64,000 nucleotides of DNA from Octopus sinensis. Taxonomy: Eukaryota. The notes under the pieces are model-generated. The model ran no database searches, was not told where the DNA came from, and saw only the letters and a list, made by a program, of their open reading frames with translations. The DNA is taken from the NCBI RefSeq assembly GCF_006345805.1, contig NC_043017.1, positions 10,602,001 to 10,666,000 on the forward strand, read 5' to 3'. A program made the translations under genes and the position numbers. Below are positions 2,821-45,749 of this stretch, piece after piece (position 1 is the first letter of the stretch; each line of letters begins with the position of its first letter).

Positions 2821-3667
2821 CTAAAATAAAGAACCAGTTTTCTGTTAGTAGAAGTATTAATAATAGAATCAAGGATTATGGTAATGGTGGTGGTTGTAGT
2901 GGTGGTCATAGTAGGGAGGGTGGTAACAGTGGTGATGGTAGTTGTGTTGATGGTTACAATAAGGTGGAGGTGGTGGGAGTAACAATGAAAGTGGTGGTGG
3001 TGGTGGTAGTGTTATTGACAGTAGTAGCAAGTGGCCCTGATGATGATTGTAGTGGTGGTGAGGATGGTAGGAGAAATACTGATGGTGGTGGTAATAGTGG
3101 AAGTGGTGGTTCATAGCACTAGTAGTAGTGTTGAGCTAATCATGTATTCAACCAGACTATTGGATGTTGTTATACAACGCTTGTCACAATGCACTTTGCA
3201 CCCTGCTGGCTAGGCAAGCAGGCCAACATTCACCCTGACCAGAAGGTTACTCTGTCACAAGGTTATACATTTACAGCTGAGTGGACTGGAGTAACATGAA
3301 ATGAAGGGATTTTGCTCAGGAACACAATGCACAGCTCAGTCCAGGAATCGATCTCTCAAATGTAAGTGTGACACATCAAACCGTTATGCCATGTGCCTTC
3401 ACGTGTTGGGGTAAATATCTCGACCCTCAACCAACACATAAAACCTGATCTTTGCCCTGCACAATTAACCACTACATAACCCCACAAAAATTCTGTCCCA
3501 TTCTCTACACCACTCTGCCAACAAAATTATTCAAATCCAAAATATCCCAGAACTTTACCCTCCCGCTCCACTAACCCCTACCAATAGAATTCCCTCCCCC
3601 ACCAAATTCAACTTTCTCTCTGCAGCCTCCCCACCCTCCATACTCACACCCCACAAAAGCTCCTCAC

Positions 3668-3755
3668 CGTGATATTTGCCAAATTCATCTCCATACTCAG
3701 CAGATTCAATATTTCCTTTTTGCACAGCACTGGACTGATGAAAAGTTTGGTGAAG
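3668..3755 (-). CDS. LTN1: LTN1 exon 29
   Basis: FTKLFISPVLCKKEILNLLSMEMNLANIT; CAG/GTGAG; 88 nt. Confidence 0.9.
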
Positions 3756-3977
3756 CTGGAATGTAAAGCAACAGGTACAGGGATCAAATAACAGCTGATG
3801 CCGAATCAGAAAGACACACATACACACACAAAAGAAGACATTCACACTGGTGACAAATGGGACACCAAAGGATAAAAACAATAAAAATAAATGAAAAATA
3901 AAATAAAATAAAATATGGAGACAGACAAATGACATTTGGAGGAGGAAAAGGTTTTCTGACTTTGCAAAATTTTGCCC

Positions 3978-4124
3978 TGTGGTAAGTAGCTTGCTAACCA
4001 ACCACATGGTTCCAGGTTCAGTCCCACTGCGTGGCATCTTGGGCAAGTGTCTTCTGCTATAGCCCGGGGCCGACCAATGCCTTGTGAGTGGATTTGGTAG
4101 ACGGAAACTGAAAGAAACCTGTCG

Positions 4125-4159
<35 letters not shown>

Positions 4160-4352
4160 GTGTGTGTGTCCCCCTAGCATTGCTTGACAACCGATGCTGG
4201 TGTGTTTACGTCCCCGTCACTTAGCAGTTCAGCAAAAGAGACTGATAGAATAAGTACTGGGCTTACAAAGAATAAGTCCCGGGGTTGATTTGCTCGACTA
4301 AAGGCGGTGCTCCAGCATGGCCGCAGTCAAATGACTGAAGCAAGTAAAAAGA
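3978..4352 (+). mobile_element. SINE family A
   Basis: Near-identical to the 207-545 family; internal (TA)n(TG)n. Confidence 0.85.
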
Positions 4353-4506
4353 GAGTTAATATGGTGCATGACTTTGTAGAATGTCAGTAACAGCTCAGGA
4401 CTGAGATATATTTTATGATCCTGAAAAACAAGGTTCAATCTTTGGATTCTCTTTTTAATTTTTTGTTTGAAGAGAGAGAGATGAGGATGAAAGTGAAACT
4501 ACTTAC

Positions 4507-4636
4507 TTGTCAATAAAAGATGCAAAAGACCGATTCTGTTTAAGCCACCAGGTTCTAATGACTGCAGGAATGGTCTCCAGGGCTTCTTCATACAACATGC
4601 AGGCCATGTCTTGGAGTAATTTACCAGAAGGAGGTG
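4507..4636 (-). CDS. LTN1: LTN1 exon 28
   Basis: PPSGKLLQDMACMLYEEALETIPAVIRTWWLKQNRSFASFID (conserved LPAxVRxWW); AG/GTAAGT; 130 nt. Confidence 0.94.
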
Positions 4637-4921
4637 CTACAAGGCATCAAAAATAGTAGTCAGTACCCAGGGTAGAACAGCAATGTGTGTGTGTATATAT
4701 ATCACGTGATCATGTGACTTACCAGGCTATCAGATGTTGCTACACATCGCTGGTCACAATGCGCTTTGCATTGTTTTAGCCTTCAAATGACGTCACCCCA
4801 CTGGCTAAGCGAGCAGGCCAACAGAAGAAAGTTGTGGTGAAATGCCCGGTCTGGGAATCAAAACCGCGATCGTACGACTGCGAGTTCGCTGCCCTAACCA
4901 CTGGGCAATTGTGCCTCCACG

Positions 4922-4965
<44 letters not shown>

Positions 4966-5041
4966 CACACACACACACACCCCTAATTGGATTAGGTGAA
5001 TGGTCAAGGAAAAAACTGAAAAAGTGAATTATTTCACTTGC

Positions 5042-5210
5042 CTGATGTGCACAGCAGATCTCTTTTAAAGGCTGATGCAGCATTTGTTACTTCATCTTTC
5101 CTTGGTTGATGGGTTGAAACAAGGGATTCTGGGATCAGAGAAAAGATGTCCGAGAGAAAGACATCAATAAGGCTAAGATTGTCAAGGTAGCGGAGGTACT
5201 CGGCTCTCAG
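5042..5210 (-). CDS. LTN1: LTN1 exon 27 (GC donor)
   Basis: LRAEYLRYLDNLSLIDVFLSDIFSLIPE...DLLCTS; ends at CAG/GCAAGT, the donor that gives the required phase 1; 169 nt. Confidence 0.85.
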
Positions 5211-5906
5211 CTGGGAAACAGAGAAGAAAGACAGCTTCTAAGTATGAGTGCAGAAAGTGTCCACAAGAAATGGCTTATGGGTCAAACAGCTATACAGGAC
5301 AGAGGTCACAATGCTCACAGTCGTCATTTAATGTCCATCATTCTCTGTGCTCGCATGGGTTAGACAGAATTTGTTGAGGTAGCTTGCTTTTCCTGTTGCC
5401 AACCCATAACTGCTTCCAAGCAATAGCCACCACAAGCCCCAGTCCCTATGGTGGCTTATATGCATCAGTGTGACACCAAAAGTTATGCCCTTGGAGTGCA
5501 AGATTCTGGTAGAGCTTCTCATGCTGGACAGGTCAAAAGATAGGGACCAGATTAATATAGATCGCCTCTTTCCAGGGGTAAAAAATGGGTTTGCGTTGGG
5601 CCAACATTTCTACCTAGAAAAAAAGCAAAGTAAGAGAAGCACTGACAAGTCAAAATCCAGCAAGTCCCAGGAAAATATGAAGTGGAAATAAGGCACAGTT
5701 GGAAAAGCAGGGATCCAACTGGAAAAAATCAGAAAAGACAGCCCAGATTAAAGAACAATGGGAAAAAGTCATTGAAAAGGCTTTGCTCCATGAGGAATGA
5801 AAGGGCTTTGCTCCATGAGGAATGAAAGGGCTTATATAAGTAGTCATAGGTTCACCAAATATATGAGGGAAATAGAAATATAGTCAGAGAAAAAGATTAC
5901 GCTTAC

Positions 5907-6099
5907 CTCACTGGTAGCTGTTTTGATAAAATGTAGCTGAAGTTTCCAGGTGAGGAGGTACCCCAGGGTACAGTATGGTGGAACAGGTGGTTTTTCAATA
6001 CTTGTACTGCTACCACTACTACTGTTGCTGGCGTCCATGTGGTACTCAAGTGCCTGCCAGGATTCTAGAAGTGCTTGCATTAGGGCCTCGTTTGGTTGT
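5907..6099 (-). CDS. LTN1: LTN1 exon 26
   Basis: QPNEALMQALL...YCTLGYLLTWKLQLHFIKTATSE (conserved LGYLLTWKL); AG/GTAAG; 193 nt. Confidence 0.94.
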
Positions 6100-7287
6100 C
6101 TGCATCAACGACAAAAAACAGAAGGATTTTATTAATTAGCAGAGACATGGAGAACGAATACACAAACACACACACACGTTCATGTCTACTTTTTCATGCT
6201 TGCATGAGTTGGATGGAATTAACTGAGGCAGGTTTTCTATGGCTGGATGCCTTGGCTGTCACTGACTCTCACCTACTTCCAAGCAAGGTAATATCTCTCC
6301 ATGGCCAGACAAGTTTCCACATAACATTGGCAATGAACAACACCGCTTCTATGACAGTGACACTCATTTACAACTACCATAAAATATCAAAACAGGGAAA
6401 CAGAAACAACGCATATATATAGATGTTAGTGTATATAAATACATACATATATATATTGGTAAAAACGGTAAGATAACAAAAGAAAGAATGAGACCTCAAT
6501 ATTATGTAAATTGAGGAAATTTATCTGTAAAATAATATGTGACAATTATTCGGTAGCCAAGATAAAACTCTGAGTTTCGGATGCCGAGGTGGAAATCCAC
6601 ACCACCATCTCTTCAGTTATCTGGCCATATGAAAAACCTCTTTCATACATAAATATATATATATTTATGTATGAGAGGTTTGTTTCAGTTTGTGGCAACC
6701 AAATCCACTCACAAGGTTTTGGTCAGCCTGAGCCTATAAAACGAAACACCTGCCCAAGGTGCCACACCGTGGTACTGAACCCGGAGCCATGTGGTTGGGA
6801 AGTAAACTTTTTAACCACATAGCCATACACGTGTGTTGAGTATGCTACTGTCTCCTTGTCTTGGCATTGTGTGATAACTGTAAATGAGTGTCACTGTCAT
6901 ACAAGCAGTGTTGTTCATCTCCAGTCTTCCATGAAAAAAACATGTCTAGTCATGGGGAAATGTTACCTTACATGAAAACCGGTGAGGGTTGGTGACAGGA
7001 AGGGCATCCGGCCACAGAAAATCTGCCTCAATAAACTACACAAAACCCATGCAATCAATAAAACAGTAATGCATGATGAAGTCACATAATATACAACAGG
7101 CTTCTTCACAGTTTCCGTCTACCAAATTTCACTGACAAGTTATTACTGAGCCTGTAACTTCAGAAGAATCTTGCCCAAGTTGTCCTTCAGTGGTACTGGA
7201 CATGGAATTACAACCTTGTTAACCCCCGTCAGCCACACTGGCAGCAAACAGGTGCTACTGACCCAACAATGTCACCATTTTACTTAC

Positions 7288-7389
7288 CTTCCGCTGTTGT
7301 CATCTTCATCTCCATCAAACTGAGAACAGTACTGTTTCATGGCCTGCTGCTGGTGGACGGTAGCTTTGGACGTTTCCTCCACTCTCGTA
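7288..7389 (-). CDS. LTN1: LTN1 exon 25
   Basis: TRVEETSKATVHQQQAMKQYCSQFDGDEDDNSGR; CAG/GTAAGT; 102 nt; phase 2-2. Confidence 0.75.
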
Positions 7390-7496
7390 CTGAAATGTAA
7401 AGGCAGCTTATGTGAGGGATAAGAACGTGAGTGAGTGAATGTGTCAGTGTGTGTGTGAGTGAGTGAATGTGTCAGTGTGTGTGATTGAGTGAGTGA

Positions 7497-7534
<38 letters not shown>

Positions 7535-8519
7535 CTGTGAGAGTAGATGTGTGCGTGTTACCTTCCCCCAATGCTAGAGGCTATGATCATATCATAAGAG
7601 AGGTTTGAACTGAAGACCCTCTCCTTTGATAGTCTCTTGTGGCCCAAGAAAGACAACTCTGTATTTCTTGCTGAACAATCTGTGCAGACGGTTTGTAATA
7701 ATCGAATGCCTGGGCCATACATTAGTTCACTCCTTCCATCAAATCAACATTGCCTGAACAGGGGCACAGTGTGCCACTCGTCAAGTGTCAAAGTGATTGC
7801 AGACCAACACGAAATGAAGGGTTTTGCTCAAGAATACAATGCACTACCTAGTCCAGAGATTGAAACAGTGATCTTGTGACCAAGGGTGCAGCATTCTTAC
7901 CATCAGGCCATGCACTCTCATATCCAGTGACATATCAAACCATTAAGCCACCAGATTACAGTCTGTTCAGTGAGACTCACTCACCCCTCTCCCCATTTTT
8001 ATAGCTTCTCCTGAGAGAAGAGAGTTTCGGTGGACCCTTTTCATACAAATTTGCTTGATTCTGCCCCTGGTCCTACAATATATATTTCTTTACTATCCAC
8101 AAGGGGCTAAACACAGAGGGGACAAACAAGGACAGACAAATGGATTAAGTCGATTACATCGACACCCAGTGCGTAACTGGTACTTAATTTATCGACCCCG
8201 AAAGGATGAAAGGCAAAGTCGACCTCAGCGGAATTTGAACTCAGAACGTAACGACAGACGAAATACGGCTACGCATTTCGCCCAGCGTGCTAACGTTTCT
8301 GCCAGCTCGCCGCCTGATACAGCAGAAGTCCTACAATATAAACATCCTTGTTTTAAAATTTCATGTTATGTTCTAAACACTATTTTAATAAAGTTATTTT
8401 ACTAAATTCTTCATTATTATTTTCAAACCCAGTTGAAACTAAAACCGTTTGTTTCAACAGTTATATGGTAACAAAAGGGTTAAAGTGATCTAAATTAAAA
8501 CCTGCAATCAAAAGTTTAA

Positions 8520-8739
8520 CCCTTTTGTTACTGTATTTATTTTGAGATGCTCTGTGTTTCTTTCAATTACTTTAAATATAACAAAGAATTTAGTAAGATA
8601 TCTTTATTACCATTAAACTAGTGTTAGAAACATAAATTGTGACTAAGGTTTGGTGGAAGATTTTAATTCAAAACTTATGAAAACAAGACATTTGTACTCA
8701 CAGCCAGAGCCAGTTTCAGCCGGGTTGGTAACGAAAGGG
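8520..8739. mobile_element. piggyBac-like MITE
   Basis: TTAA-CCCTTTTGTTAC ... GTAACGAAAGGG-TTAA; related partial copies at ~8320-8483 and ~56300-56512. Confidence 0.75.
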
Positions 8740-8936
8740 TTAATATTTGTTTGAAAGCTTAATAACGACAAAGTTATTTTACTAAATTTTTCTTTTCAAA
8801 GGCAGAGCATTTCAACTGACATGGTAACAAAACAGCTGAGACCCAACCTTGTTATCCGTAATTGTCTCACCCTTGCACCAATTCAATTCCTTCAAAAGTT
8901 GGAACCAAGGAGATGATAAATATTGAGTTTACTTAC

Positions 8937-9014
8937 GAGAGTTTCTTGAATTTCTTCACACAGTCCATCTCAGTTGATTCTTGGGTTTCCAAACTGTGGA
9001 GTTCACCAACAATT
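8937..9014 (-). CDS. LTN1: LTN1 exon 24
   Basis: IVGELHSLETQESTEMDCVKKFKKLS; CAG/GTAAGT; 78 nt; phase 2-2. Confidence 0.75.
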
Positions 9015-9902
9015 CTGAGCAGATCAAAGAAAGAAATAGAAAATTTAACAGACATTTAATATGATCAAAAAAATTCCACCCATGCCCATCCAGTGTTGCA
9101 TGTTCTTCCTTTTTATTTTTAAGACAGCAGCTAGATTTTCTTTAGATTACATCCTACTATTTCTAACAGGCAGGTCAAGTGACTATACAGGGCAGAGGTT
9201 CTCAGTTGGGATCCACATGACTTTTAGGGTCCATATAAGGTTTTGTTAAAGTCCATGAGCAAAAACTTGGTTATACTTGTACAATACACAAAATATTTTA
9301 ACAACTGTTTGTTTTTTTTTTATACAATTCCTAAAAATATAATAGGATTTTAACCAGTAACCCTGTAATTCATTCTATTCCTCATCCTCATTTAATGTTT
9401 GTTTTCCATGCTGGCATGGGTTGGGTGGTTTAACAGGATCTGTAGGGGCTAAGGATCATGTGCTCCACTGTCTATTATAGTATCGTTTCTATGGCTGGGT
9501 GCCCTTCCTAGCAGCAACCCCTTTATAGCATGTACAGGGTCCTTTTTACTGTGACCCTGGCACCATACAGTACCATACGTATGGTACATACGGGCACCAT
9601 ACATTTTACAGGAGTATGAAACCCAATGAATGTTATGGGAGAAACCTGAACACCCCCACGTGACTGAAGATGGACTAACCGATTACAATAAATAAGTGAA
9701 CTGTCCGGTTGGGGGGGGGTAGTTGATGGTGTTAGTTTGACTGTATTGTTTAACAGTGAATACAGAGTATCGTACCTACGTTCAAGTTGTACGGAGTGCA
9801 ACCACAACCAACTATACCATTTTACACCAGACGTGTACACCCACATCATAACAAAGGAGAGGGCTTTATGCTAGGGGACGAAGGTTAAGAAGGTATGTGA
9901 GA

Positions 9903-10138
9903 AGGCGGCGAGCTGGCAGAAACGTTAGCACGCCGGGCGAAATGCGTAGTGGTATTTCGTCTGCCATTACATTCTGAGTTCAAATTCCGCCGAGGTCGAC
10001 TTTGCCTTTCATCCTTTCGGGGTCGATAAATTAAGTACCAGTTACGCACTGGGGTCGATATAATCGACTTAATCCGTTTGTCTGCCCTTGTTTGTCCTCT
10101 CTGTGTTTTATCCCCTTGTGGGTAGTAAAGAAATAGGT
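9903..10138 (+). mobile_element. SINE family B
   Basis: GGCGGCGAGCTGGCAGAAACG...GAGTTCAAATTC...GCCTTTCATCCTTTCGGGGTCGATAAA; TSD AGGTATGTGAGAAG. Confidence 0.85.
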
Positions 10139-10275
10139 ATGTGAGAAGAGATGGTGGACTTGGTTCTTCATGGCTACAATTACTGTGAAATTAGGACAAA
10201 AATCAGGACAAATTAAAAATGATAAAATGAAGAGGAGGCAAGAGATTTTTCTGCATCAGATTTCTTCTCACTTAC

Positions 10276-10510
10276 TTGTCAAGGACATGGTAAGCTGTTA
10301 TTTGGACAGCATAGAGTTTCGATAAAAGCATCGGGCAGAACTGGTCTAGAATGGCTTCCAGCTTCTCGCTGGACGACAGACTGGTAGAGCTGGTTTCCTT
10401 CAGAGGTGTGTTCAATAGTCGGTCTTGTGGGCAGTGGGTTAGAACCTGTCCTAGCCAAGCAACGACAGGGTGTTGTTTGTCAGAGTCCTTCTCTGATGAC
10501 AATACACTTT
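10276..10510 (-). CDS. LTN1: LTN1 exon 23
   Basis: ESVLSSEKDS...FCPMLLSKLYAVQITAYHVLDK; AG/GTAAGT; 235 nt. Confidence 0.92.
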
Positions 10511-10820
10511 CTGGAGTGACAGAGAAATAATAATAATAATAATCTTAATGGCAAATAATAATAAGAATAATTGTTTCTTTTATTGGCCACAAGGGCTAAT
10601 ATATACAAACATAAAAGGACATACAATAACATTATACAATGGGTTTTCACATTTGTGCAGACAGTAAATAACAAAAAATTAAATATAAAACTCCCAATAG
10701 GTGCTTTGAGGGTTACTCATGGAAAAACAAAAGCTATGAGTGCCTGAATTTGAACTTAAATGGACAAATTGCCACTAAATATTTCATCCAGTAAGCTAAC
10801 CATTCAGCCAGCTCACTGCC

Positions 10821-10858
<38 letters not shown>

Positions 10859-11209
10859 CCTGTCTACTATAGGCAGGAGGGGGATAGTTGACACCACCCC
10901 CCCGTACTGAACTGGTATTTATTTTATCAACCCTAAAAAGATGAAAAGGAAAGCTGACCTTGGTAAAATGTGAACTTAAAACATGAAGACGGACAAAATA
11001 CTGACAATTCTAAAATCCCTTCAAATTCTTGGCACAAGGCCAACAATTTTAGAGGTTAAGTTGATTACATTGACCCCAGTACATTACTGGTATTTTATTT
11101 TATTGACCATAAAAAGAATGAAATAACAAGGGAGGAAGAAGAGGAAGAGATAATGAAAAATAGTTTGAAGAGAAGAATAGGAAAAGAAGAAAAGAAAGAA
11201 GGGACTCAC

Positions 11210-11414
11210 CTGCCGTTTGGATATAGAGTGGAATAACCAGAGCGTAAACGGTTTCACTGAAGAATTCATTCCATTCCGAGATGACATTGTCAGGGATGTT
11301 GGTCTGTGAGTCTTGCAGGCTGGCAGCCATCTCATAGAGCAGCTTACATATTCCTACCATAAATAGTTGCACCTGTACAGGTGAGCCACTCGGGCATTTC
11401 GTCTCACTGGCGCT
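11210..11414 (-). CDS. LTN1: LTN1 exon 22
   Basis: SASETKCP...IPDNVISEWNEFFSETVYALVIPLY (conserved EWxEFFS); AG/GTGAGT; 205 nt. Confidence 0.92.
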
Positions 11415-13006
11415 CTGGGAACAATAAATAAATTAAGATAGGAAGGTACAGAGACAGGTATGTAATTAGGTGGATATTGGGTTCAGGTTCAGCCCTGTAG
11501 TGCAGTACCTTGGGGGGGGGGGCAAGGGTCTTCTATAGCCCCAGGTTGGTTGGCCAATGCTTTGTGAGTGAATTCAATAGAAACTGTGTAGAAAGCCATT
11601 GACTGTGGCCATGCTGGTGCACTGCCTTGAAGAATTTTAGATTTGTTGAACTGCTAAGTCATGGGGACATAAACACACCAACACCATTGTCAAGCAGTGG
11701 TAGGGGACAAACACACATTCATATGACAGGCTTCTGTGTGCATGTGTTCCCCACCTGCTGCTTGACAACTAATGTCCCCTGCAACAGCATTTCAGCAAAA
11801 GAGACCAACGTCCTTGGGTTGATTCAAGGCGATGCTCCAGTATGGCTACAGTCGAATAACTGAAAAAAGATAAAAAAATAAGATAATAATCATCATCATC
11901 GTTTTAACATGCACTTTCCATACTTGCATGAGTCAGGGAAATGTATGTTGGTGTATTTATGACCCCTGTAACTTAGCAGTTCAGCAAAAGAAACTGATAG
12001 AATAAGTATCAGACTTTAAAAAAAAAAGTACTGAGGTTGATTTGTTTGACTAACATTCTTCAAGGCAGTGCCCCAGCATGGCCACAGTCTAATGACTGAA
12101 ACGAGACACACACACACACAATGGGCTTCTTTCTGTCGTCATCTGCAAAACTCACTCACAAGGCAATGGTCAGCCTGGGGCTCAAGTCAAAAGCTATTTG
12201 ACCAAGGTTCTATACAGTGTGACTGAACTCTAAAAGCACATGGTTGGCAAGCAAATCCCTCAACCACATAACCATGCCTCTGTGGACCCAAAAAAGGACG
12301 TGGCTCTGCCAGGGTTAAAATGCTCACAGTATGTCATCATGGTGCCCCCTATAACGCCATCAGGAGTTGAGGGTTCAAGGAGAGAGGGATCCAACTGTCT
12401 TACAAGTTAAAGAGGACATTAAATAATGAAGACCAGGAAGAAAAAAGGAGACTTGGAAAGCCTTGATTAGGGGTCAGCTTGTTGAAGGCCAGCCTGGAAA
12501 TCAACACTAACAACCATTTCATATCCTTTATGGTGTAACTCCATCAATTATCAATCCCAAATTTCCCAAGATTTCACATACCTTACATGATCCTTGGTCC
12601 AAATCTGTTTCAATTAATCCCCTCACTACCAGCTCTAAATTTCAAAGATCTGCTCTGACCACTGAATCTCAGATCTTCAATAATCTAAATGTACCATATC
12701 AAACCCCACCACCTCATTAACCAATCAGATCCGACTCTGAACAGCTAGACTCCCTACTGCCAGCCCCTAACAATCTTAATTCACACCTTCCATCATTTAA
12801 TTCTACTTTCTCTGACTCCCTTCCATCCTATCAGGTCTGACCCAATAACATTGCAAGTAGTTATTTTCTTTGACCCCACATCCTGTTTCAAAAAACACTA
12901 ATACTTCGTGGCCCCTCACCCTGCCCTGCTGCACTTCTGACACAAGAACTCCTCCCCAGACGAAATGCAGCTGACTGCCACCGTGTAACGGAAGGTCCCA
13001 TCTTAC

Positions 13007-13148
13007 CTGAAGCCATGAAACAGCACTGCAGAGAATGAAATCACACTGGTCGTTGTCGAGGGCTGACAGCTGTGACCACATCAGCTTGAGGAAGTTCATC
13101 ACCTCCACGTTAAAATGAACAGCATGAGGAGATGCTGAGGTGATGTTG
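13007..13148 (-). CDS. LTN1: LTN1 exon 21
   Basis: NITSASPHAVHFNVEVMNFLKL...CDFILCSAVSWLQ (listerin WDFIxCS..W-like motif); AG/GTAAG; 142 nt. Confidence 0.92.
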
Positions 13149-13787
13149 CTGTAATCAAAACAAATAACTTGAGATTACTGACTGAAAAAAAAATATGTTG
13201 AGGTGGGTGGGGCAGAGATGAAAATGTAGTCCGAGAAGAAGGACCAGAGTAGGTGACAGGAGATTCAGGGCTCATAAACTTTGCAGATTCTTTCAGAATG
13301 GTGTAAAGTTAATATGATTGATATAACAGCTTAGATTTTGCATATACACACACTGGTGTCATGTAAACAATAGCACTAGTGTTAATGCCATGTAAAAAAA
13401 AAACACCAGTGTTAGTGCCACATCAAAAGTATTCAGTAGACTCTGTAAGGTGGTTGGCTTAGGAAGGGTAACCAGCTGTAGGAATCATGCCAGAACAGGC
13501 TATGAAATCAGGTGCAGTCCCTGGCCTTGCCAGCTCCTGTGAGACAGTCCAACCCATGCCAGCATGGAAAATGGATGTTAAATGTTGATCCGGTCTTTCA
13601 AAATGTGACTACGTGTGTACCGTTGGCGATTTTTTTTTCCCCTCTGTCTTCCCTTCTCCTATGTTTCCAACGAAGAGCTCCGCTCAAAACGTTACACCCT
13701 CCTTCTTTCCTGAGCGTCCAATAATACTATATTTGTTCCACGTCCTCGCGTTGTTGTTTTTTTGTGCTTTCTTGTTTGGATTAACTT

Positions 13788-13846
<59 letters not shown>

Positions 13847-14588
13847 GTATCAATGTGTATGTATCATCATCATTTTAACATCCACCTTCCCAGGCTTGTA
13901 TGGAGTCAGACAGAATTCATTAATGTAGATTTCCTATGTCTGGTTGCCCTTCCTGTCACCAACTCTTGCCTGTTTCTAAGCAAAATAATATTTGCTCATG
14001 GTCAGACATCATCACCGTTTAATGTCTGTTGTCCCTGCTGGCATGGGTTGGATGGTTTGACCAGGGCTGGCAAGCTGGAAGGTTGCACCAGACTCTAGTC
14101 TGATTTGGCATGGTTTCCATGGCTGGATGCCCTTCCTAATACAAAATGACACTGCTTATATGACTGCCAAAACTATGAGACACATGCACACACACAAGTG
14201 AGGAGCTATAGGGAACAAAATGCCCAAGGTGGCATGCAGTGGAACTGAACCAGAGACCATGTGGTCGAGAAGCAAAGTTCTGAACCACACAGCCATGCTT
14301 GTCCACACATACACACAGGGACTAAATGTGAGCGTAGTGGGTGAAGGAGATTTAGGGACTCAATGCATTTGTTTTGGGGAGGGGAAAAGGACATGGGTGT
14401 CTGGTGGACAGGTGTTAGCAGGGTGAGAAATGGAGGCGAGGTGGGTGAATTGATTGCAACAACATGCACACATCAAACAACAACAACTATTATTAGCACA
14501 GTAAACCTTAGAAATAAAAGAGAAAGTCGTCCACAGTGAGACAATAACAACACAAATGTAACAGCCATAACATACATCACGTACTTAC

Positions 14589-15124: not shown

Positions 15125-15470
15125 GCAAGCTGACAAGAGAGACAATGCGAAGTCATTGCCTGAAAATAAGATGGGATAGTCATGGCTGGAACAGCTTTGA
15201 TCATAACTGTACTCAGTAGTGGCTGAGCTGGGGTTAAACAACCACAAATGTGTAACAAGCTGATGAGGTAGCCTCTATGAGAAGTCATTGCCTGAAAATG
15301 AGATGGGATGGTCATGGCTGGAACAGCTTTGATCATAACTGTACTCAGTAGTGGTTGCTGAGCTGGGGTTAAACAACTACAAATGTGTAACAAGCTGATG
15401 AGGTAGCCTCTATGAGAAGTCATTGCCTGAAAATGAGATGGGATGGCCATGACTGGAATAGCTTTGATCA
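15125..15470. repeat. Tandem array, ~3 units of ~120 bp
   Basis: AAGTCATTGCCTGAAAAT...GGAACAGCTTTGATCA repeated three times. Confidence 0.85.
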
Positions 15471-15542
15471 CGAGTGTATTCTCAGTTCTGGGTTGACCTG
15501 GGACTAAACAGCTACAAAGAAAGCAAGAGAGGGTTTACTTAC

Positions 15543-15700: not shown

Positions 15701-16844
15701 CTTAGAAAGGAGAAGAAAAAAAAGACAAAAAAAAACATGGAAATAAATAAATATAATTGAACAGAACAAATTAAATTAACCGTTTAGCATTCAGATTATT
15801 TTATCAAATGCGATGATTGTTCCTTCCCGTTGTTTCAGAATTAGTCATACATCATCTTGTTCTAAAAGCAGCGAAATTCTTAGCAGTATTTCGTCTGTTT
15901 TTATGTTCTGAGTTCAAATTCCACTGAGGTCGACTTTGCCTTTCATCCTTTCGGGGGTTGAGAAATTAAGTACCAGTAACGTACTGGGGGTCGATCTAAT
16001 CGACTGACTCCCTCCCCAACAAAAAAACTTCTGGCCTTGAGCTTAGAGTAGAAAAGATTATCTTGTAGTTCCAACAAGATTCTGATAATATGATTGTTTA
16101 TTTTCAGAATGACATTGTAGGGTAGGTATGAGAAGCTGGATCTAGCTAGTATGGACATAAAACAGGTATTTTAGCCAGATTAAATGCTAAAGGATTTACT
16201 GTTCATTTAATAACACTGTTTTGAATTAATCCTGTATTAATCTCCATAATAACTGCAAGAGTTTGATGATGCAATTATTTTTAGAATGACAATGTAGGGT
16301 AGGTGTGAGAGGCTGGATCTGGCCAGTTTGAACATAAACAGGTAAAACATTGTGGCTGGATATACTTTACTTTTATTTGTTTCGGTCATTAGACACTGTG
16401 GCCATGCTGGGACACCACCTTGAAGAATTTTAGAAGTTGAATGAATCGACCCCAGGATTTAGTTTTAAGCCTGGCACTATTGGTCCCTTTTAACCAAACT
16501 GCTAAGTTACAGGGACATAAACAAACCAACACTTGTTGTCAAGTGGTGAGGGAGAGACAAACAGACACAAAAGCATGCACACATAGATATATGTATATGT
16601 GATGGGCTTCATTCAGTTTCCATCTACCAAATCAATCACTCACTCACAAGGCTTTGGTCAGCCTGAGATTATGACTGAAGATCCTTGCCCAAGGTGTCAT
16701 GCAGTGGGACTAAACCCAGAACCATGTGGTTGGGAAGCAAGCTTCTAACCACACAGCTACACCTACTAAATTCTGTGATACTACTACTACTACTATTATT
16801 GTTGTTGTTGTTGTATCTGATCTTTGTTCTGTTCTTTTTTGCAG

Positions 16845-16919
16845 GATTGTTCACTAAGAAACTCTGCCGAAGATTTAATCCTCATTTTGTACAAATTTGT
16901 TCTGGAAACCGATTTGACT
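16845..16919 (+). pseudogene. Inverted partial copy of LTN1 exon 13 inside intron 18
   Basis: Reads DCSLRNSAEDLILILYKFVLETDLT on +; 4 mismatches to exon 13 over 75 nt; the acceptor and upstream intron are copied too (from ~16691); no donor. Confidence 0.9.
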
Positions 16920-17084
16920 TACCACATAGCCTCACCTGTGCCTGTGATATGAAAATTTTTTTAAAAAGAAACTCCGATGACCCTAATGGAGAAAGTTATA
17001 TTTTTTTATGTTTTTGTAAATAATAAAAAATAGATTTAAAAGAAAACAGAATTTCTTACTGTTTATGTCTTGATTTGTATTTAC

Positions 17085-17168
17085 CTGTTTTCTGAGAGTT
17101 TTTCATGGAATTTTTGTTCCAACAGAAACTGCAAGCCCATAGCTTGCCAATGTCCATCTGATAAGACA
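17085..17168 (-). CDS. LTN1: LTN1 exon 18
   Basis: VLSDGHWQAMGLQFLLEQKFHEKLSENR; AG/GTAAAT; 84 nt; phase 2-2. Confidence 0.8.
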
Positions 17169-18617
17169 CTGAAAGAGGAAATAAGTAAACATCAAAATTC
17201 ACATTTGTGTATGTGTGTATATATAAATACATATTTGGTATTAATTATTAGTGTGAACAAAAGTGCAACTCTGTTGCACTTTCCATGTATGTATAATTGC
17301 TTCTACACATAAACCAGTGTTTGGGGGTGGGGTGGAAATGGGTGCATCATAATTATATAAATATTTCTTAAAAATATAACGTTGATATATTTTATTATTT
17401 CTAACATAGTGTTCAAAATCCCTGAAAAAGAAAAAAAAAGCACTCAGCATGCTATGTAAAGTGGTTGGTGCTAGGAAGGGCATCTTGCTTTAGAAACCTT
17501 GCAAAGGCAGAGCTGGAGCACAATGCAGTCCTTGGAACACTCGGAGAACATGACATAGATGAGTCCAATTAAATAAAATCACTGTCTTCCTCACAGACAG
17601 GCTTGTCCTTTCAGGTGCAGGTGTCACTTAAAAAGCATCCATGTCAGTGCTGCGTTATTGCACCTGTACTAGTGCTACATAAACACACCTGTGCTGGTGG
17701 CACATGAAAAGCACCCAGCACACTCTGTAAAGTGGTTGGCGTTAGGAAGGGCATCAAGCCATAGAAACCATGCCTCAACAGATAGTTGGAGTCTGGACAG
17801 CTTCTAGCTGGCCAGCATCATGTCAAACTGTTCAACCCATGCCAGCAGGAAAAGAGGACATTAAACGATGATGATGATGATGTATATATTATATACATAT
17901 ATGCACCAGACTCCAATTGTCTGGTTTGGCATGGTTTCTGCAGCTGGATGCCTTTCCTGATGCCAACCACTTTACAGAGTGTACTGGGTGCTTTGTGTGT
18001 GGAACTAGTTCAGGGGCTTATCATGCTTGCATGATTGGATGGAATTTTTTGAGGCAGATTTTCCTACAGCCAGATGCCCTTCCTGTCACCAACCCTCACC
18101 TGTATTCCAAGCAAGGTAACATTTCCCATGGACAAATGAGTTTTTCTTGAAACCTTAAAACAAACAACATCACTTGTATGATGGCAATGTGCATTTTACA
18201 ATCACCAGGTGATGTCAAGACAAGGGTACACATACTTTATATTGTTTCTGCCAACTAAATCTACTCACAAGATTTTGATTGGCCTGGGGTTGTTGTAGAA
18301 GACACTTGCCCAGGGTGTCATGCAGTTGGACTGAACCCAAGACACATGGTTGGCAAGGAAGCTTCTTAACCACACAGCCACGCCTGCACCTATTAGCTCA
18401 TTCAAAGTCAGCAGTAATTGTTTAGTGTTACATCAGACAATCTGTAGTAAAAGGCATTCCAGTCATGACCATCCTATAAACATAGGTCATCTCTTTTGAA
18501 GAGGAGGGAATGGAATGGGAAGGAAATTTAGCTGCAGTTTCTAATGAGTCAAGCAACAATGGAGAAGCTGTAATGAAGTGGTGGTTATAGTAGTAGTAGT
18601 AGCAAGTAGCCACTGAC

Positions 18618-18727
18618 CGTTGTGTGAAAAGGTCCAGTAATGTATCAGTCTGTTTATCGTCCAGGTTATCAAGATGTTTGGTCACCTGCTTGTGTAATGT
18701 CATCACAGATTTCTTCAGTTCACTATT
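18618..18727 (-). CDS. LTN1: LTN1 exon 17
   Basis: NSELKKSVMTLHKQV...LLDLFTQR; poly-T + CAG acceptor, GTCAGT donor; 110 nt. Confidence 0.83.
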
Positions 18728-19379
18728 CTGCAAAAAAAAACAACAACAATAAGGGTTTCAAATTTTGGCACAAGGCCAGCAACTTCGGAAGAAGGGGTAA
18801 GTAGACTATATTGACCTCAGTGCTCAACTGGTACTTATTTTATCGACCCCGAAAGGATGAAAGGCAAAAATCGACTTCAGCAGAATTTGAACTCGGAATG
18901 TGCAGACAGATGAAATGTTACTAAGCAATTTTTGCGACATGCTAACGATTCTGCCAGATCACTGTCATAATAATAATAAAAGTAAAAATGGATGCAAGAC
19001 TACAGGTTTTTCAAGGACCTCCATTATCAGGAATAATAATAATGGTTTCAAATTTTTGCACAAGGCCGGTAATTTTAGGGGTGGAGGTTAGTCAGTACTT
19101 GACTGATACTTCATTGCTCTTGAAAGGATGAGAAACCAAGCTGGCCTCAGAAGGAATTGAGCACAGAACATTAAGGGCTGGAAAGACTGCAGCAAAAGCA
19201 TCATTTCCAAGACTCTAAAGATTCTACCAGCTCCATGCATTTGTGAAATATCATTCGATGAAAAGAGGCATTGAACTACAAATGGTCGAGAATTACTGGT
19301 CTAACCCAAGCCAGGATGGAAAAATAGACATAAAAATGAATGCAAAACAAAAAAATATAAATAAAGTGACAGTTTTTAC

Positions 19380-19664
19380 CGTGTTGTAGGTATCGACCCA
19401 ACATTCGGAAACAGCAACGGAACAGAGCAAGTTGTAAAGGACATCAAGAAGTTGGGGTGGATTAAGTAAGCTGGTCAAGGGGTCACTAGAATCCTCTGAT
19501 AGATCATCTTGCAAGAAATCTAATAGAGATGTATGGAAGAGGCTAGTGAAGACTGTGGAAGTAGGGAAGTCTCCAGGTGGAACCTCGGGGTTTAGTTTAT
19601 TGTGTCTTTGACAATCCCAGTAAGTGGCGCTTAGCTGTCCGGTTATCATGAGATATTCTTCAAA
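19380..19664 (-). CDS. LTN1: LTN1 exon 16
   Basis: FEEYLMITGQLS...LYNLLCSVAVSECWVDTYNT; AG/GT; 285 nt. Confidence 0.87.
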
Positions 19665-20307
19665 CTGAAAGACAAAAACAAAAATTTTTTTTAATTAAAA
19701 TAAAATCGAAATCAATCAACATCAATGGAAATTGCAGCTGTGATACCAGTGCGCCGTTGGTATGTAAGAGAACCATCCGAACGTGACCGTAGCCTGCGCC
19801 ACCCCAACTGGCCTCGTGCCGGTGGCACGTAAAAAGCACCATTTGATCGTGGCTGTTGCCAGCCTCGTCTGGCACGTAAAAAGCACCCACTACACTCAAG
19901 GAGTGGTTGGTGTAGAAACATTGCCAGATCAGACTGGGCCTGGTGCAGCCTTCTGGCTTCCTAGACCCCAGTTGAACTGTCCAACCCATGCTAGCATGGA
20001 AAGCGGACGCTAAACGATGATGATGATGAAAATAAAATAAAAGTAAAATAGTTTCATATTTCAGCACGAGGCCAGCAATTTTAAGGGGGAAGAGAAAGTC
20101 TATTACATAAACCCCAATAGTTGACTGGTACTTTATTTTATCAACCTAGAAAGGATGAAAAGCAAAGCTGACAATAACAGAATTTGAAACTTGAACAGCT
20201 GGATTAAATGCACCAGACATTTTGTCTGCTGCTCTACCAATTTTGCTAGTTTGCAATCCTAATTGTTTCTCATTTCAAAACACCTTAGCAGAAATGGAGA
20301 TCCTTAC

Positions 20308-20449
20308 CTGTTTAGGTGGCAACACATGTTCTGTCACACTGAACAGGTGACTGAAGTGCTCAACCAAAAATGGACTGGTTAAACCGTTGTCTACTTCTGC
20401 AAACACTGTGTGTAACAGAGTCTTTACTTCTCCAAAGACAGTTTGTAAT
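20308..20449 (-). CDS. LTN1: LTN1 exon 15
   Basis: LQTVFGEVKTLLHTVFAEVD...HVLPPKQ; AG/GTAAG; 142 nt. Confidence 0.85.
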
Positions 20450-21340
20450 CTGCAAAGAATGAGAAAAAATTAAAATAAGGGAGGTTCAATGTCACGAGAA
20501 GAGGGAGAGAGAGAGGAAAGAGTTGAGAAAAAGCAGATGTTATCATTTTAATGTTCACTTTGTATTGTTCTCAGGAGTTATGCAATTTGTTGAGGCATAG
20601 ATCCTGCAGCTGGATGCTCTTCCTGTTGCTTACCCTCATCTGTTTCCAAGTAAGATAATTCCCTCAAGATTAGATATGTCTTGGAGGAAATGAAGGACAC
20701 CACTAGCATGATGGCAACATCTGTTTACAACTATTGATGATGATGATGGAATGGCAAGGAGATAGCAATGCATATGCACACACACACACACATACATACA
20801 TACATGATGGGCTTCTTTTAGTCTCCATCAACCAAATCTACTCACAAGGATTCTGTCACCCCAGCTCTAGTAAAAACACTTGTCCAAGGTGCCAAGCAGC
20901 GGGACAGAACCCAGAATAATGTGGTTGGAGAAGCAAACTTCTTACCATAAATTAATATATTAATTATCATCCAATTTCTTTATTAGCCACAAGGGCCCAA
21001 AAATAGAGGGGGACAATACAGCCTGATTTGGGTCAGACACACAATGATTATATGACTTCTAAAATTTTACAAAATATAATGAAATCGAATGAGATACAAC
21101 AAGGACGTAATACAAACATGAGATGAAGCAGAGAGATGGCTTACGCTCCGACCCCACGAGCCCCATTCTCCTTTCCTCATTGCCGCCATCACCATCACCA
21201 CCATCAACATCGTTGCTGTCACTACCACCACCACCATCATTATCATCATACCTCATTTTTAAGGGGTCCAATTACAAAGAGGAAGCCACGCAATTAGAAA
21301 GTTAATGAATTTACTGCAGGACACTAAACGAGGTACTCAC

Positions 21341-21497
21341 TGTTCTGTTGTGGCCACTTTGTACATAACTGTATCTCGAACTGCCTGGAAAACGTTGAGG
21401 AAAAACCTACTGGTGCCCTTCGATGTTGCAGGCTGGCGACGGTAGAGAGTCTGCATTCCATTGATACAAACTTGACGAACTTCCTTTCGAGTGTGTT
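21341..21497 (-). CDS. LTN1: LTN1 exon 14
   Basis: EHTRKEVRQVCINGMQTLY...KVATTEQ; AG/GTGAGT; 157 nt. Confidence 0.85.
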
Positions 21498-21724
21498 CTA
21501 TGGGATGAAGACAAATTATAACAAACATCAGTTAATGAGAGAAACGTTCAAAACTAACAGAATTCTAATTGGTACAAGTAACTTTATATATATACATATA
21601 TTCACAGATACACATACCAGGGATGGCTGTGTGGTTAAGACACTAAAATGATGATTATGATGGTGTCATATATGACAAAATTAAAGGAATCAAGTCGAAA
21701 CAAAGTTATAGAAATAAGTATATA

Positions 21725-22112
21725 GGCACAGGAGTGGCTGTGTGGTAAGTAGCTTGCTAACCAACCACATGGTTCCGGGTTCAATCCCACTGCGTGGCAT
21801 TTGGGCAAGTGTCTTCTGCTATAGCCCCGGGCCGACCAATGCCTTGTGAGTGGATTTGGTAGACGGAAACTGAAAGAAGCCCGTCGTATATATGTATATA
21901 TATATATATGTGTTTGTCTCCCCTAGCATTGCTTGACAACCGATGCTGGTGTGTTTACGTCCCCGTCACTTAGCGGTTCGGCAAAAGAGACTGATAAAAT
22001 AAGTACTGGGCTTACAAAGAATAAGTCCCGGGGTCGATTTGCTCGACTAAAGGCGGTGCTCCAGCATGGCCGCAGTCAAATGACTGAAACAAGTAAAAGA
22101 GTAAAAGAGAGT
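21725..22112 (+). mobile_element. SINE family A, full length
   Basis: Complete head through AAAAGAGT tail. Confidence 0.85.
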
Positions 22113-22270
22113 AAGAGTATAAAATTATGTACAGATTTAACTGAAAAGCTGGAGAATCTAACTCAACAGAGACATTACTTATAGCCAACTCTTATCTGCA
22201 CCAATTCCATATTCCACACACACACACAAGAAAAAAACAGATAATAGTTTAAGAATCTGAAGGAATTTAC

Positions 22271-22352
22271 CTGAAACAGTCAAATCGGTTTCCAGAACAA
22301 ATTTGTACAAAATGAGGATTAAATCTTCAGCAGAATTGCTTAGGGAACAATC
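22271..22352 (-). CDS. LTN1: LTN1 exon 13
   Basis: DCSLSNSAEDLILILYKFVLETDLTVS; strong pyrimidine tract + AG, GTAAAT donor; 82 nt; needed for phase continuity. Confidence 0.87.
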
Positions 22353-23019
22353 CTGCAAAAAAGAACAGAACAAAGATCAGATACAACAACAAGAGTAGTA
22401 GTAGTAATGGTGGTAGTAGTAGTAGTAATAGTAGTATCACAGAATGTAGTAGGTGTAGCTGTGTGGTTAGAAGCTTGCTTCCCAACGTGGTTCTGGGTTC
22501 AGTCCCATTGCATGACACCTTAGGTAAAGTGTCTTCTGCTACAACCTTGGGCTGATGAAAGCCTTCTCAGTAGATTTGATAGATGGAAACTGAAAGAAGC
22601 CCATCGTGTGTAGGTGGGTGTCATTGTGTACGTATTTTTCTTCCACTACCACTTGACACCAGTGTTGGTTTGTGTATGTCCCCATAACTTAGCAGTCCAG
22701 CAAAAGAGATGGACCGAAGAAGCACTAGGCGTAAAAAAAAAGTCTCAATTTTTTTTATAGCTGGATGCCCTTATCATCATCACCAATAACCCTTATGGCT
22801 TAATCCCTTGGCATTCAGATTACTCTCTCAAATGTAATGCTTATTTTATCAGCATTGTTTTGAATTAATCGTGCATCATCCCATAGCTTCAAGATTTCAA
22901 TGATGCTATTGTTTATTTTTAGAATGACATTGTAGGGCAAGTGTGAGGGGCTGGATCTGGCCAGTTTGAACATAGAACAGGTAGAAAATTTGGGCCTGAT
23001 ATGGTTGGTAAAATCTCAC

Positions 23020-27800: not shown

Positions 27801-27949
27801 CTGGAAAGGACAAGAATGGGGAAGAGAAAAAGAATAAAATACTAATAATGGTGGAGGTGTCTGATGCAGATGGTTTAGTACCAGGCAGCAGCACACAAAG
27901 AATTTGATTTCTATTTCACTATCACAATCTGCAAGGTGTTTTAGCATTA

Positions 27950-28166
27950 TACTCTTTTACTTGTTTCAGTCATTTGACTGCGGCCATGCTGGAGCACCGC
28001 CTTTAATCAAGCAAATCGAGCCCAGGACTTTTTCTTTGTAAGCCCAGTACTTATTCTATCGGTCTCTTTTGCCGAGCCGCTAAGTGACGGGGATGTAAAC
28101 ACACCAGCATCGGTTGTCAAGCAATGCTAGCGAAACAAACACAGACACACAAACACATACACACTA

Positions 28167-28211
<45 letters not shown>

Positions 28212-28376
28212 TACAACAGGCTTCTTTCAGTTTCCGTGTACCAAATCTACTCACAAGGCATTGGTCGGCCCGGGGCTATAGCAGAAGACACTTGCCCAAG
28301 ATGCCACGCAGTGGGACTGAACCTGGAACTAGGTGGTTGGTTAGCAAGCTACTTACCACACAGCCACTCCTGCGCC
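27950..28376 (-). mobile_element. SINE family A
   Basis: Reverse-complement full-length copy. Confidence 0.85.
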
Positions 28377-28746
28377 TATATACGTATTAAATATGCATAT
28401 GTGCAGGAATGGTCGTGCAGCTGAGAAGTTTGCTTCCCAACCATATGGTTCCAGGTTCAATCCCACTGTGTGGAAACTCAAGCAAGTGTTTTCTACTAGA
28501 GCACAGAGCCGACCGAAAGCTCTGTGAGTGGATTTAATAGACAGAAACTGAAAGACAACCGTTGTGTGTATGTACACTGTTTGACTGGTGTCGGTTTGTT
28601 TACATCCTTGTGACACTGGATTGGCATAAGAGACTGATAGAATAAGTAGTAGGCTTAGAAATAAGCACTGAGACAAGCTAGTCAACCCAGCATGGTCACA
28701 GTCCAATGACTGAACCAAGTAAAAGAGAAAAAATAAAACCACACAT

Positions 28747-28780
<34 letters not shown>

Positions 28781-29181
28781 TCTTTTACTTATTTCAGTCA
28801 TTTGACTGTGGCCATGCTGGAGCACTGCCTTTAATCAAGCAAATTGACCCCAGGACTTATTCCTTGTAAGCCTAGTACTTATTCTATTGGTCTCTTTTGC
28901 TGAACTGCTGAGTTACAGGGACATAAACACACCAGCATCAGTTGTCAAGCGATGTTGGAGGGATAAACACAGACACACAAGCATATACACACACATATAT
29001 ACGACAGGCTTCTTTCAGTTTCCACCTAGCAAATCCACTCACAAGGCTTTGGTCAGCCTGAGGCTATAGTAGAAGACACTTGCCCAATGTGCCATGCAGT
29101 GGGACTGAACCCGTAACCATGTAGTTGGTAAGCAAGCTACTTACCACACAGCCACTCCTGTGCCTATACACACACACACAC

Positions 29182-29216
<35 letters not shown>

Positions 29217-29603
29217 TCTTTTACTTATTTCAGTCATTTGACTGTGGCCATGCTGGAGCACAGCCTTTAATCAAGCAAATTGACCCCAGGACTTATTCCT
29301 TGTAAGCCTAGTACTTATTCTATTGGTCTCTTTTGCTGAACTGCTGAGTTACAGGGACATAAACACACCAGCATCAGTTGTCAAGCGATGTTGGAGGGAT
29401 AAACACAGACACACAAGCATATACACACACATATATACGACAGGCTTCTTTCAGTTTCCATCTAGCAAATCCACTCACAAGGCTTTGGTCAGCCTGAGGC
29501 TATAGTAGAAGACACTTGCCCAATGTGCCACGCAGTGGGACTGAACCCGTAACCATGTAGTTGGTAAGCAAGCTACTTACCACACAGCCACTCCTGTGCC
29601 TAT

Positions 29604-29640
<37 letters not shown>
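28781..29640 (-). repeat. Tandem duplication of a SINE family A copy (2 x ~436 bp)
   Basis: Units offset by 436 bp; near-identical, see ORFs 28887 and 29323. Confidence 0.9.
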
Positions 29641-45132: not shown

Positions 45133-45150
45133 ATTATTATTATTATTATT

Positions 45151-45700: not shown

Positions 45701-45715
45701 TTATTATTATTATTA

Positions 45716-45749
<34 letters not shown>

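What the first reader, a model, noticed from the sequence alone, without database searches (positions are those of the whole stretch)
16691..16945. Antisense copy of LTN1 exon 13 and its 3' splice site embedded in intron 18
Seen: 16691-16919 is the reverse complement of ~22278-22521: SINE head, (TAC/TTG)n tract, the whole pyrimidine tract, the AG and 75 of the 82 exon bases with only 4 mismatches. It sits inside another SINE whose head resumes at 16920 (TTACCACATAGC...CCTGTGCC), suggesting a SINE-to-SINE template switch that copied through the exon and returned. Both copies are on the same pre-mRNA ~5.4 kb apart and could form a ~200-bp duplex. Known: coleoid cephalopods recode mRNAs heavily by ADAR using intronic complementary sequences, and duplexes over acceptors can cause skipping. 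Inference: a newly born editing-complementary or splice-masking element. Skipping the 82-nt exon would frameshift LTN1.
Basis: partly seen in the sequence, partly recalled or inferred. Interest (0 to 1): 0.75.

Follow-up and report, generated by a model that had tools for sequence, protein, structure and literature searches.

The report
Backwards exon copy in octopus LTN1
A 173-base backwards copy of most of one coding exon of the octopus LTN1 gene sits in a later intron of the same gene, likely left by a DNA-repair slip between two repeat elements; it is predicted to pair with the exon in unspliced RNA, but similar slips recur nearby, so it is likely a harmless scar rather than an RNA-editing or splicing switch.

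Summary
Observation confirmed with one correction: the copied piece is most likely 16747-16919 (173 nt, from 22278-22468), not from 16691. It holds 75 of the 82 bases of LTN1 coding exon 13 plus its acceptor, antisense, in intron 18, with 4 exon differences. It is not an assembly error: a read-derived contig carries the copy's own letters and has exactly the 115-nt length of the repeat. The anatomy (18-nt identical entry inside two related SINEs, 2-nt microhomology exit, host SINE resumes) fits one-sided template-switch repair. Two more cases of the same anatomy lie in 1.66 Mb around the window, and the scan has noted similar antisense exon scraps on other DNA, two in this genome (unchecked notes). 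A duplex is predicted, but the arms are 5.4 kb apart, the copy is transcribed after the acceptor, there is no A-C mismatch, and a run of another organism appears to lack it. Editing, skipping and circRNA were not tested: no RNA reads were laid. Verdict: real, young repair scar of a known kind, function not shown. Interest 0.25.

The parts
16747..16919 (+). Templated insert (173 nt), inverted copy of 22278-22468; antisense to the exon on the LTN1 pre-mRNA
16845..16919 (+). Copy of exon 13 nt 1-75; 4 differences, all at third codon positions (16853, 16859, 16862, 16868), three synonymous and one S>R if read in frame
16805..16844 (+). Copy of the last 40 nt of intron 12 (TTG tract end, pyrimidine tract, AG at 16843-16844), identical to the source
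16747..16804 (+). Copy of the donor SINE's end, its flank and the (TAC/TTG)n tract (18 nt shorter than in the source; one substitution at 16769)
16729..16746 (+). 18-nt block identical in host and donor SINE: inferred entry point of the switch
16360..16746 (-). Body of the host repeat (SINE label and head orientation rest on recalled tRNA-like box A/B motifs; no Rfam hit)
16920..16943 (-). Host SINE end resuming after the insert; 2-nt CT microhomology (16918-16919 vs 16745-16746); no target-site duplication or poly(A)
22271..22352 (-). LTN1 coding exon 13 (82 nt, residues 834-860 of P0001)
22278..22468 (-). Source (template) of the insert: exon 13 nt 1-75, acceptor of intron 12, microsatellite, end of donor SINE
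22451..22744 (+). Donor SINE in intron 12, same family as the host and opposite in orientation
17085..17168 (-). LTN1 coding exon 18; the insert begins 165 nt downstream of its donor on the pre-mRNA

Best explanation
A 173-base piece of LTN1 (end of a SINE, the intron-12 acceptor and 75 bases of exon 13) lies backwards inside a related SINE in intron 18; it likely arose in one germline repair event and is likely a neutral or nearly neutral scar whose predicted RNA duplex would cause at most low-level by-product editing. Inferred steps: a break or stalled fork in the host SINE freed a 3' end at about 16746; it paired with the oppositely oriented donor SINE 5.7 kb away, synthesis ran off the end of the donor SINE through the microsatellite, the pyrimidine tract and most of exon 13, and the new strand rejoined the other end of the host SINE at a 2-nt CT match, with no host sequence lost (one-sided invasion / template switch with end-joining). 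Shown: the two copies, their boundaries, the diagnostic SINE letters, uniqueness in the genome and read support. Predicted only: pairing with exon 13, most plausibly after introns 12-17 are removed and intron 18 is not yet, when the loop shrinks to 950 nt.
For: Entry in an 18-nt identical block and first donor-only letter at 16747; host SINE resumes at 16920 with 21/24 matches; no loss, no target-site duplication, no poly(A). Only two places in the genome. Same prime/run-out/return anatomy in 2 further pairs, 23 kb direct and 33 kb inverted; of 125 two-copy pairs found in 1.664 Mb, 23 lie 0.5-35 kb apart, and 16 of 31 pairs at 88% or more identity do so, against 4% expected for random positions. 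3 events in 1.664 Mb = 1.8 per Mb (95% range 0.4-5.3), so an exon being caught now and then needs no selection. Organism D's 307-nt contig runs through the exon without the break that the repeat causes in X1, so the copy is likely absent there. The changes are likely in the copy: 3 of 3 Octopus proteins keep S at the AGC/AGA codon and D has the exon's T at 16868. Full SINE pairs in introns 8-13 give stronger predicted duplexes (-633 and -705 kcal/mol) than this pair (-301; -114 for the exon part). In human Alus editing decays with distance on a scale of about 800 nt and is helped by being in the same intron (PMC4066801, abstract): factor 0.001 at 5358 nt, 0.3 at 950 nt.
Against: No RNA reads were laid, so 'neutral' is inferred, not measured. 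The predicted duplex is real substrate-like: 72 of 75 exon pairs have probability above 0.9 in the spliced intermediate, and the insert lowers the folding energy by about 99 kcal/mol; 20 exon adenosines lie in it, 15 of which would recode. All four exon differences fall on third codon positions within 16 nt (P 0.012 and 0.013, post hoc), which simple neutral drift does not predict; clustering also appears in the 23-kb case (4 of 5 differences in the last 22 nt), the codon phase stays unexplained. No empty (pre-insertion) allele was seen; runs X2 and X5 had no cover over the exon part, so the age and spread in sister species are open. The Alu distance rule comes from humans.
Confidence: 0.72

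Rival explanations
1. Same origin, but the insert now works as a newborn editing-complementary sequence: while intron 18 is unspliced it pairs with exon 13 and ADAR recodes LTN1 residues 834-858 at levels that matter.
For: 75-bp duplex with 2 mismatches and 2 G-U wobbles, pair probability 0.97 with a 950-nt loop in the spliced intermediate; 15 of 20 paired exon adenosines would recode; coleoids edit very widely, also housekeeping genes (PMC9068888, passages).
Against: No exon A faces a C, the feature PMC8891338 finds enriched at coleoid sites (passages); near-perfect duplexes give unselective editing (own knowledge); residues 834-860 are identical in 3 of 3 Octopus proteins; likely absent in organism D; the anatomy recurs without exons. 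No LTN1 entry in the two supplement files held (the editing tables themselves were not among them).
Confidence: 0.15
2. The insert masks the exon-13 acceptor or loops out exons 14-18, causing skipping (frameshift, stop after 60 codons, likely decay) or a 778-nt circular RNA, and so tunes LTN1 level.
For: The whole pyrimidine tract and AG are paired in the predicted duplex (-185 kcal/mol for 115 nt); skipping frameshifts and exons 14-18 sum to 778 nt.
Against: The copy is transcribed 5.4 kb after the acceptor, and introns 12 and 13 are short (667 and 773 nt), so co-transcriptional splicing would usually act first (inference); the host SINE already had inverted partners in introns 12 and 13 before the insert; the annotated protein includes exon 13.
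Confidence: 0.06
3. The piece was captured through RNA (retrotransposition with flank transduction, or RNA-templated repair from the LTN1 pre-mRNA).
For: Source and target lie in one transcript; the piece holds intron plus exon, as a pre-mRNA would.
Against: Only about 20 nt of donor SINE are copied, no poly(A), no target-site duplication, exact landing in the homologous position of a related SINE; no A-to-G changes on the mRNA sense; the 23-kb case is direct and the 33-kb case inverted, as DNA templates allow.
Confidence: 0.05
4. Assembly or polishing artefact (chimeric join through the SINE).
For: Both junctions lie in repeats; no junction-spanning contig was among the pieces shown.
Against: Copy-specific letters stand in a read-derived contig whose length (115 nt), end (16919) and depth (about 1.6x) are those of a two-locus repeat; the 16-mer with the four changes is unique in the genome.
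Confidence: 0.02

Closest known systems
Templated insertions by template switching (FoSTeS/MMBIR, MMB-TI; PMC8421209 abstract and first part of section 10 read; PMC4888836 passages)
   Same: Insert copied from a nearby template, inverted, with microhomology at a junction and return to the original template; found as germline variants in humans.
   Different: Entry uses long repeat homology (18 nt identical within a ~250-nt related SINE) rather than a few bases; template 5.4 kb away; the insert contains a coding exon with its acceptor.
One-sided invasion / SDSA coupled to end-joining between dispersed repeats (Belmaaza and Chartrand 1994: title seen only in the reference list of PMC4888836, content recalled; SDSA and Alu ectopic recombination in PMC7407515, passages)
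   Same: Homologous entry, synthesis of a few hundred bases beyond the homology, non-homologous exit, no crossover.
   Different: Known mainly from induced breaks in reporters; here a fixed or segregating natural product between octopus SINEs, seen 3 times in 1.66 Mb.
Editing-complementary sequences (GRIA2 Q/R type; recalled) and inverted-Alu duplexes (PMC4066801, abstract)
   Same: Intronic sequence complementary to a coding exon of the same pre-mRNA, downstream of it.
   Different: Five introns away rather than in the next intron; near-perfect and unselective; no A-C mismatch; young and likely lineage-restricted; no editing shown.

Membership tests
Templated insertion by template switch / one-sided invasion | Insert has a single nearby template | tested here: met
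   Only two genome places hold the exon part, 5.4 kb apart
Templated insertion by template switch / one-sided invasion | Homology or microhomology at both junctions | tested here: met
   18-nt identical block at entry, 2-nt CT at exit; 2 nt alone is weak
Templated insertion by template switch / one-sided invasion | Return to the original template | tested here: met
   Host SINE resumes at 16920, 21/24 match to other copies, in register with 16746
Templated insertion by template switch / one-sided invasion | Empty pre-insertion allele in a relative or another haplotype | tested here: inconclusive
   Organism D's contig runs through the exon unbroken (no second copy), but no contig joining 16746 to 16920 at this locus was identified among the rows shown
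Editing-complementary sequence | Complementary to the exon on the same pre-mRNA and able to form a duplex | tested here: met
   In silico only: -114 kcal/mol for 75 nt; pair probability 0.97
Editing-complementary sequence | A-to-I editing of the exon depends on it | not tested
   No RNA reads laid; no LTN1 entry in the two supplement files held
Editing-complementary sequence | Selective geometry such as an A-C mismatch at the target | tested here: not met
   Mismatches are C-U twice and U-G wobble twice; no exon A faces C
Editing-complementary sequence | Conserved across related species | tested here: inconclusive
   Likely absent in organism D; no cover in runs of organisms B and C
SINE/LINE transduction (retroposed flank) | Poly(A) or tail repeat, target-site duplication, element body copied with the flank | tested here: not met
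   None seen; only about 20 nt of donor SINE copied, landing at the homologous site of another SINE

The most novel reading that the evidence does not exclude
SINE-primed repair in octopus keeps writing antisense copies of neighbouring DNA into introns (about 2 events per Mb here, thousands genome-wide if uniform), and is a standing source of new editing-complementary sequences; this LTN1 insert is one caught at birth, switching on ADAR recoding of exon 13 in carriers only, so carrier and non-carrier species give a direct test of how coleoid recoding sites arise.
Probability: 0.12. Interest if true: 0.62.

Novelty: new member of a known kind. Interest (0 to 1): 0.25.

Why it matters
As a single locus it is most likely ordinary repair debris. 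Its value is as a test case: a dated, clean, 75-bp exon-intron duplex in an animal with very active ADARs, with a likely non-carrier relative as control, can show whether such accidents create recoding sites. The recurrence of the same anatomy (3 cases in 1.66 Mb) points to SINE-primed capture of flanking DNA as a regular mutational process in this genome; I found no paper on it in octopus (searches; listings only, closed-access papers not covered).

Tried and rejected
No RNA holder listed with more than a small share; no RNA run was laid, so expression, editing and skipping stay open. Runs X2 and X5 gave no cover over 16802-16889, neither copy nor true exon: a hole, not absence. The laid stretch included SINE sequence, which flooded the joint, loose-end and piece tables (183,427 pieces not shown). 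A processed pseudogene or paralog as source of the four differences: rejected, only two genome places and the 16-mer is unique. A second short template for the clustered changes: one 14/16 match at 9191-9206 on the minus strand, no flanking homology, 0.68 such hits expected per 1.66 Mb from 25 shuffles: rejected as likely chance. More distant cephalopod LTN1 proteins to polarise the S/R codon: the search returned only the Octopus cluster. Rfam: 0 matches at E<=0.1 in 16300-23000. LTN1/listerin in supplements of PMC8382921 and PMC9068888: 0 hits in one file each (64,827 and 3,805 characters); the editing-site tables were not among the files held and could bear on the claim. Two papers asked for by id were not held. 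PMC6923311 passages added nothing. Exon boundaries were partly mis-set; one search has the corrected ones and only those are used. The no-insert control fold left one base of the insert in place. A 5' splice-site-like GTG/GTAAGT at the return junction would extend exon 18 by 162 nt but into an immediate stop, and the motif comes with every sense SINE head (4 TGTGGTAAG in the gene): not pursued.

Full report
Gene and place. The window encodes LTN1 (listerin) on the minus strand: the largest exon matches P0001 at 99%, which its source names Octopus sinensis listerin; the cluster also holds O. bimaculoides and O. vulgaris proteins. Chaining P0001 on the window makes 22352-22271 the 13th coding exon (82 nt) and puts 17084-15701 in intron 18.

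The observation. 16805-16919 is the reverse complement of 22278-22392 with four mismatches, all in the 75 exon bases. Upstream, 16729-16798 matches 22417-22486 at 96% in a second register, because the (TAC/TTG)n tract is 18 nt shorter in the copy. A search of the whole genome with 16760-16925 gave 26 matches; only the copy and the source include the exon part. So this is a single local copy.

Is it in the animal? I laid four runs on 16560-17200. In X1 a contig of 115 nt has no difference from the copy, ends at 16919 and has depth 75.9, where other contigs of the run have 35-51. The perfect repeat is exactly 115 nt long (16805-16919), and if an assembler collapses two loci and pops the bubble made by the four differences, the expected depth is 1.46 times single copy; observed 1.56-1.64. 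The copy's own letters are therefore in reads, and the graph branches where the copy ends. X1 may be the sample of the assembly, and no junction-spanning piece was among the 32 shown, so long reads would still be the clean proof. In X11 (organism D) a 307-nt contig lies on 16832-16919 with four differences, has T at 16868 like the true exon, and runs on unbroken past the exon: D likely has the exon but no near-identical copy. X2 and X5 gave no cover here, which says nothing.

Where the copy starts and ends. Aligning 20 SINE stretches of the window and scoring each column shows the host keeping the majority letter at 16704 and 16725-16728, where the donor is derived; then 18 identical bases (16729-16746); then the first donor-only letter at 16747, shared by 0 of 18 other copies. 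After 16919 the host resumes with the 24 nt that the family has right after the position of 16746 (21/24 to three copies). The insert is thus 16747-16919, 173 nt, with no host loss, a 2-nt CT ambiguity at the exit, no target-site duplication and no poly(A). The label SINE and the head orientation rest on recalled tRNA-like motifs; Rfam gave no match.

Mechanism of origin (inferred). Long homology at the entry and microhomology at the exit is what one-sided invasion followed by end-joining, or a fork template switch with return, leaves behind. PMC7407515 (passages) describes SDSA synthesis of several hundred bases and ectopic use of Alus; PMC4888836 (passages) describes FoSTeS/MMBIR switches over 7-32 kb with return; PMC8421209 (abstract and first part of section 10) finds templated insertions as germline variants in humans. 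Sequence alone cannot tell these pathways apart.

Base rate. I compared 1.664 Mb of contiguous DNA around the window with itself. Filters: at least 80 nt aligned, at least 50 nt covered by no other match on both sides, gap at least 500 nt, low complexity left out. 125 pairs passed; 23 lie within 35 kb, and 16 of the 31 pairs at 88% identity or more do, against 4% expected. Six of the 23 include repeat sequence in both arms; I read the alignments of five of them (the 2.2-kb foldback was not read). Three, this one included, show the full prime, run-out and return anatomy: C21:10784229/10817804 (33 kb, inverted, ~205 nt flank) and C21:10038596/10062237 (23 kb, direct, ~135 nt flank). The other two are inserts into a repeat without priming by it. 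That is 1.8 per Mb (0.4-5.3), or 1,000-14,000 genome-wide if this repeat-rich region is typical. Coding exons are about 14% of the LTN1 span (5.4 of 38 kb), so catching one needs no special explanation. The scan's earlier notes list several antisense exon scraps, two in this genome, all judged repair scars; these are unchecked notes and I use them only as context.

What it could do to the RNA. Predicted duplex energies are -301 kcal/mol for the whole pair, -185 for acceptor plus exon, -114 for the exon part. They are not exceptional here: SINE pairs between intron 13 and intron 8 reach -633 and -705, among 138 inverted pairs in 24 kb. Masking the acceptor would need intron 12 (667 nt) to stay unspliced until a further 5.4 kb are transcribed; I rate that unlikely. 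If exon 13 were skipped, a stop would follow after 60 codons. Editing is the more plausible effect: once introns 12-17 are gone and intron 18 is not, the loop is 950 nt and 72 of 75 exon pairs have probability above 0.9. Twenty exon adenosines are paired, 15 of them recoding if edited, and none faces a C. In human Alus editing falls off with distance on a scale of about 800 nt (PMC4066801, abstract), giving factors of 0.001 and 0.3 for the two states. PMC8891338 (passages) places coleoid editing in local structures of 32-45 nt with A-C mismatches and notes that introns are largely ignored; PMC9068888 (passages) reports widespread low-level editing that may be a by-product. Low by-product editing here would not surprise; selected recoding is not indicated. 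No RNA reads were laid, so none of this is measured.

Against my reading. The four exon differences all sit at third codon positions within 16 nt (P 0.012 for phase, 0.013 for clustering; post hoc), while the 40 intronic bases before and the 51 exon bases after are identical. Three Octopus proteins keep S where the copy would give R, and D has the exon's letter at 16868, so at least two changes are likely in the copy; the other two are not polarised. No second template exists as an exact 16-mer, and a 14/16 match at 9191 is within chance. The 23-kb case also has clustered differences near its exit, which fits error-prone repair synthesis; the codon phase remains unexplained.

Verdict. Real, single, likely young templated insertion of a known kind; origin well supported (about 0.9), neutrality inferred (about 0.8). 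Novelty: new member of a known kind. Interest 0.25. The bold reading, a newborn editing-complementary sequence from a recurrent SINE-primed capture process, gets probability 0.12 and interest 0.62.

Noticed in passing
L042 (C21:10784229-10784691) and L046 (C21:10817804-10818265): Second SINE-primed capture: another SINE family primes, about 205 nt of unique flank are copied in inverted orientation 33 kb away, and the host SINE resumes; 2 differences in 217 unique nt.
   Followed up: partly
L134 (C21:10038596-10038871) and L137 (C21:10062237-10062509): Third SINE-primed capture, direct, 23 kb apart, about 135 nt of unique flank, host SINE resumes; 4 of 5 differences cluster near the exit.
   Followed up: partly
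C21:10063232 / 10068110; 10249441 / 10251387; 10268462 / 10270477; 10777071 / 10779457; 10909021 / 10912269: Further local two-copy pieces of 120-350 nt, 1.8-4.5 kb apart, 90-98% identical, some inserted into repeats: local templated insertion looks common in this genome.
   Followed up: partly
window 28740-29640: Tandem duplication of a whole SINE, 436 nt x 2.1, 98% identical, in LTN1 intron 8; very young or an assembly duplicate.
   Followed up: no
window 21713-22106 with 27947-28388, 28773-29171 and 29209-29595: Inverted SINE pairs up to 95% identical bracket LTN1 exons 9-13; predicted duplexes stronger than the one in the finding; a better candidate for back-splicing or intronic editing.
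   Followed up: partly
window 16915-16925: The return junction reads GTG/GTAAGT on the mRNA strand, a consensus donor 162 nt past the exon-18 donor; its use would hit a stop at once, and sense SINE heads carry most of the motif anyway.
   Followed up: partly
window 55949-56226 and 56514-56790: Two-copy inverted repeat, 278 nt, 92%, 288 nt apart (foldback-like).
   Followed up: no
window 15145-15518: Tandem repeat of 135 nt x 2.8 just after LTN1 exon 19.
   Followed up: no
window about 44300-61700: Several short exons on both strands that look like small four-pass membrane proteins; one has a weak PMP22/claudin hit (E 0.004, below the curated cut-off): possibly a tandem gene cluster beside LTN1.
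   Followed up: no
C21:9998285-10003395 (L170, L131): 2.2-kb inverted duplication, 99.3% identical, 779 nt apart.
   Followed up: no
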